Source: the human T2T-CHM13v2.0 reference genome, Homo sapiens. From it: a DNA stretch of 64,000 nt. Position 1 is the first letter of the stretch; each line of letters opens with the position of its first letter. Both the position numbers and the translations under genes were made by a program. Under the pieces are notes generated by a model, which searched no databases, was not told where the DNA came from, and saw nothing but the letters and a program-made list of their open reading frames with translations. The DNA lies in the NCBI RefSeq assembly GCF_009914755.1, contig NC_060930.1; one strand, written 5' to 3'. Shown here one piece after another: positions 29,930 through 64,000 of this stretch.

Positions 29930-31957
29930 CTGAAATAATTTCAAGACAATGTTATTTTACAACCTGGCACAAATTCAATAAAGCTGCCAGAGGTACAAGA
30001 GATCTGATAACTAAGGCAGAAAGGTAAGTGATAATTTCAAATCTGCCCAAATTTGCAAAGCTGGTGACAGGCAGCCCCTGAGAAAACATATGATAGGTCT
30101 GTAAACTCGCCTGCCTGCATACCCACCTTAGAATTCTCTTTGTAGCACTGGTAACACCAGTCAGCCCGCAATCAGATGTGGGACTGGGAGAAGGGGAATA
30201 TTTGTTAGGCACAGCTAATCCTCAAGCCTCCTTTTAGCAGTTTTAACTCAAATCAAATTTACATGAGTGTTGATAAACACAGCTATGCCAAACAGCAAGT
30301 TTCACCTTCCCTCTTGCCTTTGTTCATTCTTGGATTGATTTATAAAGAATACTGAAAGAACAGATAAGGAAAGGGCAGGAAGGGGGAAAATGCAAACAAA
30401 CCAACAAGGAGACTGGACAGGCACAAACTACAGCATTAGCCCCTCAAATAATCTTGAGCTGGTGCAATTTACAGCCTAAATTGATCACTCTGACAACTCA
30501 CTGGGTACTATGCCTACTTACAGCCTGTGTCTATTACAATATTCTTGAAGACAGTATGCTAAAAATGCAATGGGGTTATAATATACAACCATTAAGACTA
30601 TTCTCCAAACATACACATACATACATTAGAGCATCTTTAAAAGAGCATGAAAACTCCACTATAAAGGAATTATGACATACAGAAACCAAAATAGCTTCTA
30701 TGGAAATAAAACCAAGTCCCAAAATACCAATAATACTTTACATTTGAAAACCCTTAATGTTTATAGGCAATGTTCTGTCACATAAACCGTTGGATTTGAT
30801 CTTTGAGCAAAAGGTATTCCAGCCTTTGCTTTTGTTTGTAAACAGAAAAAGAAAACTGCAGTACCTCTGGTCTTTTCTTTTCATATTGATATCACACATG
30901 AGGAAAGAGGAAGACAATGATGAGCTATCTACTAACCACCTGCATGTACAATCATGAAGACCACGAAGGATCACTGAAGGAGCAGAATCAGGAGCTGGGG
31001 GACCGGGGCCCCAGCTGCGTAAGCCTGGCCTGTCATTGGACCTGAGTGCCCCTGTGGGTAGAGGGACTTTGCCTATTTGTTCACACTGAATCCCAGCCCT
31101 ATAACACGGCCTGGCACATAGAAGAGCTTCAAAAATGCTTGTTGACTCAAAGACAAAGCAAACCACTTCACAAGGCAGCAGTAGGAATTATGTATGAAAG
31201 ATGTACCTGATACAAAAAGGGCACTTAATATTAATTTAATCTGAGTATTAAGGCTAATTTCACTTTTATTTTAAATACATTTGACTTATAATCTCCAAAA
31301 AAAAATCAATAATCTCTTTCCAAAGCCGATGGCATATCAGTAACTCTAATGAAATTTCAAGATCACTGTACATTATATGTATGGAAATATCACTCTGGAC
31401 CCCAAGAATATGTACAACTATTATTTGTCAATTAAAAAAATAAGAATTTCAACAAATTTTTAACTTTATTTTGAAGTCAGATCTAAGATAAATAACATTT
31501 AAATCATTTTTCTGAGAACTTCTATAATACAAGTTGTCCAATGTGTAAATTTAAAGTCCTTTCTTAAGAGGAAATATAAATATACACTACTTGAGCAGAC
31601 AGTATGTGATAAATGAAATTTAGTTTTATAAACTCAAAAGAAATTCTTCTAAAAGTATATGTATACACATATATGTATAAGTATATATACATATATGCAT
31701 AAATACATATTACATAAGATGATTTAAAATATCAAGCAACCCATTAGAGTATAAACAAACGTGAAAAGTAACTGGTAGAAACACTAGACAGTTTTACATA
31801 AGAGGAAGGAAGGACTCGATGACAGACCCCTAAGCTTCTGTGAGTCTGTAAGCACTGGATCTTTTTTCCCTCCATCAATTCCTGAATATCTTCACCCCTG
31901 GAGAGTCAATTTAAACATTTTATATATAAATTGGTTTGAGTTCATTGACAGAAATAC

Positions 31958-61481: not shown

Positions 61482-61706
<225 letters not shown>

Positions 61707-62840: not shown

Positions 62841-63234
62841 AACATAAATTTAGAAATATTTTGGTTTCCTCTAAATGTTTAATATTAAAGAATGCATTTC
62901 TGATACCATTAAATCTTTCCAAAGTTAGTCATTTGAGGACTAAATCTACTGAAAGTGATCGGAACTGACTTTATTTTAGGTGAAGAAAAGGAGAAGGACA
63001 AATTCAAGGTGAGTTTGTTCTCCTGGCATCATTCAGGGTGGTTTGTGGAGTGAACTGGGACTGGTTCTCCTAGCAGCTAGGCTACTAACTGGTGCTGAGA
63101 TCTCAGACATGTTCATTTGGATTTTAGCTTTCTTTTGCTTAAAATGAGGACACTGGTCTTCAAGGTTCCTACCAATTTTCAAAGCTCATTGTTCTAAGGA
63201 AATTCTCAAGCTCAAGTTAAAAATTCACTTCAAT

Positions 63235-63706
63235 AAAAAGCATATAGTATCATTGTTGGACATTTGGGTTGGTTCCAAGTCTTTGCTATTGTGAATAGTG
63301 CCGCAATAAACAACAATGATAGACTGGATTAAGAAAATGTGGCACATATACACCATGGAATACTATGCAGCCATAAAAAATGATGAGTTCATATCCTTTG
63401 TAGGGACATGGATGAAATTGGAAACCATCATTCTCAGTAAACTATCGCAAGAACAAAAAACCAAACACTGCATATTCTCACTCATAGGTGGGAATTGAAC
63501 AATGAGATCACATGGACACAGGAAGGGGAATATCACACTCTGGGGACTGTGGTGGGGTCGGGGGAGGGGGGAGGGATAGCATTGGGAGATATACCTAATG
63601 CTAGATGACACATTAGTGGGTGCAGCGCACCAGCATGGCACATGTATACATATGTAACTAACCTGCACAATGTGCACATGTACCCTAAAACTTAGAGTAT
63701 AATAAA

Positions 63707-63739
<33 letters not shown>

Positions 63740-63852
63740 CCAAACCACATGTCAGGCACTGTTTAAAATGCTTTATATGCATTAAATCATATAATCTCTC
63801 AAAAAATAAAAAATAAAAACTATTATTCAAAAAAAAAAAAAGCATATAGTAT
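63235..63852 (+). mobile_element. L1HS-Ta, 5'-truncated, 5'-inverted, with 3' transduction (span includes both TSD copies)
   Basis: Ta diagnostics ACA (63610-63612) and G (63695); inverted L1 piece 63248-63312; forward L1 63311-63706; TSD aaaaagcatatagtat at 63235-63250 and 63837-63852. Confidence 0.93.
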
Positions 63853-64000
63853 ACACAATAAGTATTTACTGAATGACTGAAAAAATAAATACCACTGTGA
63901 GAACACACTTTAAAAGTTAAGAGAAGTAGAACATAATTCTGATACTTTCTTAAGATGCACTTACTTTGCTCACGCACACTCGTGCACATAATATCTTTTG

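What the first reader, a model, noticed from the sequence alone, without database searches (positions are those of the whole stretch)
63235..63852. Young L1HS-Ta insertion in MAP7 intron 3 carrying a 3' transduction that barcodes its source element
Seen: the L1 3' UTR has ACA (gatgacACAttagt, 63610-63612) and G (cttaGagtat, 63695). The L1 ends near 63706, but the right TSD copy (aaaaagcatatagtat, matching 63235-63250) does not appear until 63837-63852. The interval holds an (AAC)n tract (~63708-63740), ~88 bp of non-L1 sequence (63741-63828, MIR-like) with its own AATAAA hexamers (63805, 63812), and a second poly(A) starting at 63829. The left junction fits the L1 endonuclease TTTT/A site. Established: ACA+G defines the currently active human-specific Ta subfamily, and read-through of the weak L1 PAS carries flanking DNA to new sites. 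Inference: the 88 bp come from downstream of a full-length, recently active source L1 elsewhere, and this insertion may be presence/absence polymorphic.
Basis: partly seen in the sequence, partly recalled or inferred. Interest (0 to 1): 0.85.

Follow-up and report, generated by a model that had tools for sequence, protein, structure and literature searches.

The report
Truncated young L1 with borrowed tail
This is an ordinary, dead, 5'-truncated and partly inverted copy of the young human L1 retrotransposon in a MAP7 intron, carrying a short piece of chromosome 12 DNA at its tail, which hints at a parent L1 that this genome assembly lacks.

Summary
A 16-bp target-site duplication (63235-63250 = 63837-63852) brackets about 586 bp of inserted DNA. 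The L1 part carries ACA (63610-12) and G (63695) and is 398/398 identical to other young L1 copies.

- The first 61 bp (63251-63311) are an inverted L1 ORF2 piece, the mark of twin priming.
- Only (AAC)n plus 62 of the "88 bp" have a parent: G000:C12:104346843-104346904 (minus strand). There they lie directly 3' of an old Alu whose tail is (AAC)n, inside a repeat that continues further.

That chr12 place has no young L1 in this assembly. A 94%-identical full-length older L1 ends 3.3 kb upstream. The last 26 nt (63803-63828: an A-rich run with two AATAAA, then CTATTATTC) have no other copy in the genome.

Best reading (about 0.7): a partnered 3' transduction from a non-reference L1 sitting in the chr12 Alu tail, perhaps passed through a second, unseen L1 copy (serial transduction). 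The main rival is a reverse-transcriptase template-switch chimera. Polymorphism and the empty site could not be tested, because only one human assembly was available and paper supplements were closed.

Every mechanism involved is textbook. Interest is low.

The parts
63235..63250 (+). Left copy of the target-site duplication (aaaaagcatatagtat). It is preceded by caat, so the bottom strand reads TTTTT/A. The last 3 nt (tat) could equally be L1 (microhomology).
63251..63311 (-). Inverted L1 ORF2 segment (61 nt). Its reverse complement is found exactly in 25 of 29 other young L1 copies and ends 7 nt inside the start of the sense part. The minus strand translates to [21 protein letters not shown].
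63312..63709 (+). Sense L1 3' end: the last 61 codons of ORF2 (TMIDW...SLIGGN*, stop at 63496-63498), the 3' UTR, AATAAA at 63701-63706 and only 3 further A. Identical over 398/398 to 3 other copies, and at most about 1 mismatch to 36 more of the 40 scored.
63610..63612 (+). ACA, the Ta-diagnostic trinucleotide. The exact 34-nt context occurs 432 times in the genome, against 3561 times with the three bases left open.
63695..63695 (+). Its diagnostic value is recalled, not taken from a call. An older GAG-type copy (L008) has A here.
63708..63740 (+). (AAC)11. It is continuous with the chr12-derived sequence. The chr12 Alu tail has (AAAC)2(AAC)6 at the same place.
63741..63802 (+). 62 nt, 100% identical to G000:C12:104346843-104346904 (minus strand). 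It is a piece of an old dispersed repeat (MIR-like by recall; 4 other loci at 82-87%). It contains ATTAAA at 63781-63786 and ends in CA about 15 nt after it.
63803..63819 (+). A-rich run A4-T-A6-T-A5 holding AATAAA at 63805 and 63812. Read as the first poly(A) tail. Not present at chr12.
63820..63828 (+). CTATTATTC, an orphan piece. With the A before it, 9 nt match chr12 18 bp beyond the end of the tag. Absent from two full-length L1 copies. The 26-nt context is unique in the genome.
63829..63836 (+). Terminal A-run (8 A, continuous with the 5 A of the right TSD copy). It begins at a CA 11 nt after the second AATAAA.
63837..63852 (+). Right copy of the target-site duplication.

Best explanation
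One L1 retrotransposition event by target-primed reverse transcription placed about 586 bp into MAP7 intron 3, antisense to the gene.

Steps shown or read directly from the sequence:
- The L1 endonuclease nicked the bottom strand at TTTTT/A.
- Reverse transcription started on the poly(A) of an L1-Ta transcript. That transcript had read through the L1's own AATAAA into flanking DNA of chr12: an Alu tail turned (AAC)n, plus 62 nt of an old repeat. It was cleaved at a CA about 15 nt after an ATTAAA.
- The second strand primed internally on the same RNA (twin priming). The result is a 61-nt inverted ORF2 piece, a 7-nt overlap with the sense part, and 2-3 nt microhomologies at both joints.
- Staggered nicks made the 13-16-bp duplication.

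Inferred:
- The transcript came from a full-length L1-Ta sitting in the tail of that chr12 Alu, in the Alu's orientation. That element is absent from this assembly, i.e. polymorphic or lost.
- The last 26 nt are best read as the poly(A) of a first offspring copy (A4TA6TA5, whose T's create two AATAAA) plus 9-10 nt of that copy's own flank, cleaved at a CA 11 nt after the second AATAAA. This would be a second, very short transduction from an intermediate L1 that is also absent here. I hold the sub-claim at about 0.35.

The inserted copy itself is dead: it keeps 61 codons of ORF2 and has no promoter.
For: - TSD pair and endonuclease site.
- L1 part identical to other young copies: 398/398 to 3 copies, 714 bits to 36 more of the 40 scored out of 1403 candidates.
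- Inverted piece exact in 25 of 29 copies, contiguous in L1 coordinates with a 7-nt overlap. The translations join up as ...KCPTM / TMIDW....
- ACA present, and its meaning is stated in passages of PMC7026601. The same paper describes the architecture TSD - inverted L1 - L1Hs - poly(A) - 3' transduction - second poly(A) - TSD.
- Of the 6 places that matched the tag, the only perfect match besides the window itself is chr12, over 62/62 nt; the other 4 are 82-87%.
- The identity extends back through the (AAC) units, giving 83 identical columns. At chr12 the old repeat continues past the point where chr6 turns into A's, so the direction is chr12 to chr6.
- The hexamer-to-CA distances are canonical at both A-runs.
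- The tag lies on the minus strand, between landmark hits for two plus-strand genes. No protein-coding host transcript is therefore expected to supply it in sense (gene names and extents are recalled).
- An A-rich Alu tail is a plausible endonuclease target (established knowledge).
Against: - No young L1 lies at the chr12 locus. No L1 carrying this tag exists anywhere else in this assembly, so the defining proof of a transduction, tag next to source, is missing.
- Only 3 A's separate the L1 AATAAA from (AAC)n. A source element should have its own poly(A) tail there.
- The Alu-tail bases gacaaacaaac seen at chr12 are not in the window, and the window has 11 AAC units against 7. This requires insertion inside the repeat, or a different allele or an expansion.
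- For the serial sub-claim: two T's within a 17-nt young tail are unexpected. The 9-mer ACTATTATT also occurs at chr12 18 bp beyond the tag. The chance of that is 7e-4 for any window 9-mer (90 of 127,984) or 3 of 1219 for 9-mers starting at the end of an A-run, which hints at a link to chr12 that this model does not explain.
- No paper was found naming this insertion or a chr12 source, and supplementary tables could not be read.
Confidence: 0.7

Rival explanations
1. Template-switch chimera. Reverse transcription at the chr6 nick began on an unrelated polyadenylated RNA from the chr12 region. One candidate is a read-through transcript of the full-length older L1 that ends 3.3 kb upstream in the same orientation. 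Inside the (AAC)n, the enzyme jumped to the 3' end of an ordinary L1-Ta RNA. No L1 ever sat in the chr12 Alu tail.
For: - CHM13 has no L1 at the tag.
- Only 3 A's lie between the L1 AATAAA and (AAC)n, which suits a jump better than a genomic L1 tail.
- A full-length older L1 (94% identical over 5246 nt) lies upstream in the right orientation and could supply a sense transcript.
- L1 reverse transcriptase is known to switch templates (established knowledge, recalled).
Against: - It needs two RNAs and trans-mobilisation of a non-L1 RNA, which is rarer than 3' transduction.
- The jump would have to land at the very start of the L1 poly(A).
- Transcription of the chr12 tag in sense is not shown here.
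- It does not explain the last 26 nt any better.
Confidence: 0.17
2. Single-step transduction from a chr12 allele that differs from CHM13. In the source haplotype the 18 nt CAGTTGTCTCAAGTAGGT were already replaced by the A-rich 16-17 nt. The transcript ended after ACTATTATT, so all 88 nt come from chr12 in one step.
For: - The 9-mer ACTATTATT is shared at nearly the same offset (16 versus 18 nt), with a low chance expectation.
- AATAAA at 63812 lies 11 nt before the CA at 63828-63829.
Against: - The CHM13 chr12 version of those 18 nt looks to me like the ancestral form of the old repeat (recalled MIR consensus, not tested here).
- No ordinary mutation turns 18 mixed bases into an A/T run.
- The base after the 9-mer differs (C versus T).
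- No such allele could be examined.
Confidence: 0.08
3. The non-L1 stretch is native chr6 flank and the 16-bp repeat is chance, or two independent insertions happen to lie side by side.
For: The region is A-rich, which inflates short repeats: 188 of 2000 resamplings gave an exact repeat of 11 nt or more.
Against: - A 16-mer arose in 1 of 2000 resamplings.
- The stretch is a perfect copy of chr12, including the microsatellite junction, and stops in an A-run, while at chr12 the repeat continues.
- The L1 has no TSD of its own next to its AATAAA.
Confidence: 0.02

Closest known systems
L1HS-Ta insertions with a partnered 3' transduction (read-through of the weak L1 poly(A) signal)
   Same: Non-L1 DNA lies between the L1 AATAAA and a terminal A-run, all inside one TSD pair. 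There is a downstream poly(A) signal at the canonical distance. The tag maps uniquely to another chromosome. The same layout is described in PMC7026601 (passages).
   Different: The parent locus holds no young L1 in this assembly. The tag starts inside an Alu-tail microsatellite with almost no L1 tail before it. The last 26 nt have no parent.
Twin-primed (5'-inverted) L1 insertions
   Same: The inverted 5' piece and the sense 3' piece are adjacent in L1 coordinates, with a short overlap and 2-3 nt microhomologies, inside one TSD pair. [quoted passage not shown] The mechanism itself is recalled.
   Different: Nothing unusual. The inverted arm is simply very short (61 nt).
Serial (multi-part) transduction lineages of L1
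   Same: Two successive units, each of the form [borrowed DNA + A-run], and each with its own hexamer and CA cleavage site.
   Different: The second unit is only 9-10 nt and its origin cannot be mapped. No intermediate element was seen. That such lineages are documented is recalled; I read no paper on them here.
Chimeric retrocopies made by L1 reverse-transcriptase template switching
   Same: Two unrelated RNAs would be joined within one TSD pair.
   Different: In the chimeras I recall, the L1 or another polyadenylated RNA is the 3' partner. Here L1 is the 5' partner and is joined exactly at its 3' end. No call tested this.

Membership tests
L1HS Ta subfamily | ACA trinucleotide in the 3' UTR (ACG = pre-Ta, GAG = L1PA2 or older) | tested here: met
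   ACA at 63610-63612. The definition comes from passages of PMC7026601. The ACA context occurs 432 times, against 3561 with any triplet.
L1HS Ta subfamily | G at the second 3' UTR site (cttaGagta) | tested here: met
G at 63695. An older GAG copy has A there.
L1HS Ta subfamily | Near-identity to other young copies | tested here: met
   398/398 to 3 other copies and 714 bits to 36 more of the 40 scored. The inverted 61 nt are exact in 25 of 29 copies. The Ta-0/Ta-1 sites lie outside the retained part (recalled), so no finer assignment is possible.
L1 insertion by target-primed reverse transcription | Target-site duplication, TTTT/A-type nick site, terminal A-run | tested here: met
   16-bp TSD, caat|aaaaag junction, and A13 of which 5 fall in the TSD.
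L1 3' transduction | Non-L1 sequence between the L1 poly(A) signal and the terminal poly(A), inside the TSDs, with its own poly(A) signal | tested here: met
   63708-63828, with ATTAAA at 63781 and AATAAA at 63805 and 63812.
L1 3' transduction | The same sequence lies directly 3' of a full-length source L1 at the parent locus | tested here: not met
   The parent locus was found on chr12, but the tag follows an Alu tail. The only L1 nearby is a 94%-identical older one 3.3 kb upstream. This was tested in one haploid assembly only, so a non-reference source is not excluded.
L1 3' transduction | Empty allele or ape orthologue with a single TSD copy | not testable with these tools
   No other human or ape assembly was available.
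Twin priming (5' inversion) | The inverted 5' segment is contiguous in L1 coordinates with the sense segment, with a small overlap or deletion and microhomology, within the same TSDs | tested here: met
   7-nt overlap; 'tat' and 'ca' microhomologies; translations [21 protein letters not shown] and TMIDW....

The most novel reading that the evidence does not exclude
The tail records two generations of an L1-Ta lineage that the T2T-CHM13 assembly lacks entirely. The first is a full-length element in the (AAC)n tail of an Alu at chr12, about 104.35 Mb. The second is a full-length offspring at an unknown site, whose mutated A-tail (two AATAAA) forced a 9-10-nt second transduction. If both exist as polymorphic elements, the composite tag would serve as a barcode for a recently, and possibly still, active lineage.
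Probability: 0.3. Interest if true: 0.3.

Novelty: already known. Interest (0 to 1): 0.14.

Why it matters
It matters little beyond bookkeeping. The copy is a dead 0.46-kb L1 fragment, antisense in a MAP7 intron, about 1.6 kb from the nearest exon (61506-61669).

Its one useful feature is the tag. It points to chr12 at about 104.35 Mb (T2T coordinates) as the former or polymorphic home of a retrotransposition-competent L1-Ta. It also gives a sequence handle, (AAC)n plus 62 nt and perhaps plus the 26-nt second unit, for finding that element and any siblings in pangenome or tumour data. Such lineage tracing is routine in the L1 field.

Tried and rejected
- Sibling or source copies in the same genome: the 88-nt tag, the L1/(AAC)n junction with up to 1 mismatch, and the tag-end/A-rich/CTATTATTC junction with up to 3 mismatches each found only the window. 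The exceptions were the chr12 parent and one unrelated older L1 on C23 with its own (AAC)5 tail.
- Origin of the last 26 nt: the pattern with up to 2 mismatches gave 3 imperfect hits, against 5 for the reversed control. CTATTATT is absent from both strands of two full-length L1 copies. Its other window occurrences are far away, at 31418 and 53866.
- I considered a Pol III read-through transcript of the chr12 Alu, because the first TTTT after that Alu falls right at ACTATTATTTT. I dropped it because the window lacks the Alu body and the 18 nt in between.
- The old chr12 L1 as the source: rejected, since it is 91.4% identical to the window's L1 over 395 nt.
- Literature: no paper held MAP7 + LINE-1 + transduction + source element or MAP7 + L1HS. 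12q23.3 + LINE-1 + transduction gave one paper whose 12q23.3 entry is a different L1PA2. CHST11/TXNRD1 + L1 terms gave 2 irrelevant papers. Approximate chr12 coordinate prefixes gave none. The query was badly chosen and returned nothing relevant.
- Supplementary call tables and earlier findings of this scan were closed. A published listing of this insertion or of a chr12 non-reference L1 may therefore exist unseen.

Full report
**What is there**

- The 16-mer aaaaagcatatagtat stands at 63235-63250 and again at 63837-63852 (families D1 and D2).
- Between the two copies lie L1 sequence with ACA at 63610-63612 and G at 63695, and the L1 AATAAA at 63701-63706.
- A perfect (AAC)11 follows at 63708-63740.
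- Next come non-L1 sequence up to 63828 and an A-run from 63829.
- The left junction reads caat|aaaaag, which is TTTTT/A on the nicked strand.

In 2000 first-order resamplings of 63100-64000, an exact 16-mer repeated 400-800 nt apart arose once, a 13-mer 19 times and an 11-mer 168 times. The duplication is therefore not chance, and 11 of its bases are not homopolymer.

**The L1 part**

The stretch 63312-63709 is 398/398 identical to three other genomic copies. It scores 714 bits (about one mismatch) against 36 more. These are the 40 candidates scored out of 1403 found by the first look. It encodes the end of ORF2 (TMIDWIKKMW...SLIGGN*, stop at 63496-63498), followed by the 3' UTR.

- Its reverse complement occurs exactly in 25 of the 29 other copies I fetched. 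The 4 misses each differ by one or two bases.
- It always ends 7 nt inside the start of the sense part.
- Its minus strand translates to [21 protein letters not shown], the residues that directly precede TMIDW.
- An 11-nt perfect inverted repeat (63248-63258 / 63311-63321) shows that the last three TSD bases (tat) could equally be L1. Two bases (ca, 63311-63312) are shared at the inversion joint.

This is the standard picture of a twin-primed, 5'-truncated insertion.

**Subfamily**

Passages of Zhou et al. 2020 (PMC7026601) state that ACA in the 3' UTR defines L1Hs-Ta, ACG defines pre-Ta, and GAG marks L1PA2 or older. In this genome the window's exact 34-nt ACA context occurs 432 times. The same context with the triplet left open occurs 3561 times, and most of the listed others are GAG or ACG.

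The role of the G at 63695 is recalled, not drawn from a call. An older GAG-type copy has A there. With no difference from other young copies in 459 nt, the insertion is young, but this bounds its age only loosely.

**Where the extra DNA comes from**

A whole-genome search with 63741-63828 found 6 places:
- the window itself;
- one other perfect match, G000:C12:104346843-104346904 on the minus strand, covering bases 1-62 of the 88;
- four loci at 82-87% identity, which look like members of an old dispersed repeat (MIR-like by my recall).

At chr12 the identity runs back through the AAC units, giving 83 identical columns. Upstream of them is not an L1 but an old Alu, whose tail reads aaaaagacaaacaaac(aac)6.

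Downstream of ...ctctcaa, chr12 continues with the old repeat (cagttgtctcaagtaggtactattattttcctgattttacag...). The window instead turns into A4-T-A6-T-A5, then CTATTATTC, then A13. The copy direction is thus chr12 to chr6, and the (AAC)n belongs to the borrowed DNA.

The only L1 within 10 kb on either side of the chr12 tag is a full-length older element.
- It is 94.05% identical over 5246 nt to a young copy, and 87% over the first 760 nt.
- It lies in the same orientation and ends 3.3 kb upstream.
- It is 91.4% identical to the window's L1 over 395 nt, so it cannot be the source.

Landmark hits place a sulfotransferase exon at C12:104.72 Mb (+) and a pyridine-nucleotide-disulphide-oxidoreductase dimerisation exon at 104.30 Mb (+). 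By my recall these are CHST11 and TXNRD1. The tag would then be intergenic, on the opposite strand to both.

**No siblings, no source in this assembly**

The L1/(AAC)n junction, the tag-end junction and the 26-nt terminal unit are each unique.
- The single near-match to the first junction is an older GAG-type L1 on C23, with its own (AAC)5A9 tail and a different flank.
- The three 2-mismatch hits to the 26-mer are no more than the five hits of the reversed control.

**How it most likely arose**

Everything inside the TSDs is explained most simply by one RNA. An L1-Ta transcript ran through its own weak AATAAA into chr12 flank and was cleaved at a CA about 15 nt after ATTAAA (63781-63786). It was then inserted at chr6 by target-primed reverse transcription with twin priming.

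This requires a full-length L1-Ta in the tail of the chr12 Alu, in the Alu's orientation, that CHM13 does not carry. A-rich Alu tails are good endonuclease targets (established knowledge). I put this at about 0.7.

Three observations weigh against it:
- Only three A's lie between the L1 AATAAA and the first AAC, where a source element's own tail should be.
- The chr12 bases gacaaacaaac are missing from the window, and the AAC count differs (11 versus 7).
- The source itself is unseen.

**The last 26 nt**

They are not at chr12, not in L1 (CTATTATT is absent from both strands of two full-length copies that align over 6007 nt at 99.05%), and not elsewhere in the genome.

Their form is an A-run containing two AATAAA, then 9 nt, then a CA 11 nt after the second hexamer, then A's. 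That is what a second, very short transduction from an intermediate full-length offspring would leave. I hold this at about 0.35.

The awkward fact is that ACTATTATT also occurs at chr12, 18 bp beyond the tag. The post-hoc chance of this is 7e-4 (90 of 127,984 window 9-mers) or 3 of 1219 for 9-mers that start at the end of an A-run. A chr12 allele with the intervening 18 nt replaced would explain it, but I see no ordinary way to make such an allele. I leave this point unexplained.

**Rivals**

- A template-switch chimera (about 0.17) needs no L1 at chr12 and fits the near-absence of an L1 tail. The upstream old full-length L1 could even supply a sense transcript. But it needs two RNAs and a jump to the exact 3' end of the L1 RNA.
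- Native flank, or two separate insertions, is close to excluded.

**What could not be done**

Only one human assembly was available, so I did not test:
- presence/absence polymorphism of the chr6 insertion;
- the ape empty site;
- the filled chr12 allele.

Main-text literature searches found no mention of this insertion or of a chr12 source. One search was a poorly chosen query. 'Not in print' therefore means only 'not in the searched main texts'.

**Verdict**

This is a correct and careful observation of an ordinary object. It is a dead, twin-primed L1HS-Ta fragment, antisense in MAP7 intron 3 and about 1.6 kb from exon 61506-61669. It carries a partnered 3' transduction whose parent locus (an Alu-tail/old-repeat junction on chr12) lacks the presumed source L1 in T2T-CHM13. 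All mechanisms are textbook. The small residual value is the tag as a handle on a non-reference L1 lineage.

Noticed in passing
L041:3338-9445 (G000:C12:104350238-104356345, minus strand): Full-length older L1. It is 94% identical to a young copy over 5246 nt and 87% over the first 760 nt. It lies 3.3 kb upstream of the chr12 tag in the same orientation, and its 3' end reads ...cttaAagtataacaatttttaaaaaag, i.e. A at the second diagnostic site.
   Followed up: partly
L002:1895-2075 (minus-strand view; G000:C12, about 104347240-104347420): A minisatellite of about 180 bp made of GGTGAT/GGTGGT-type units lies just upstream of the Alu that precedes the chr12 tag.
   Followed up: no
L008:1480-1530 (G000:C23, about 65488760-65488810, minus strand): An older GAG-type L1 whose own tail is A6(CAA)5A9. 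This shows that an (AAC)n directly after the L1 AATAAA can also arise within an L1 tail, without any transduction.
   Followed up: yes
window 63223-63227 and 63825-63829: ATTCA occurs 7 nt before the A5 of both TSD copies, so the repeat finder reports a 28-nt repeat at 82% identity (D2). I take this as coincidence, because the 7 nt between are cttcaat on the left and aaaaaaa on the right.
   Followed up: partly
G000:C2:94009106-94309670: Six exact ACA-context L1 3' UTR matches fall in two clusters, all on the minus strand. Spacings within a cluster are about 12.3 and 6.2 kb in the first, and about 5.5 and 6.2 kb in the second. This suggests a tandemly duplicated block containing a young L1.
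   Followed up: no
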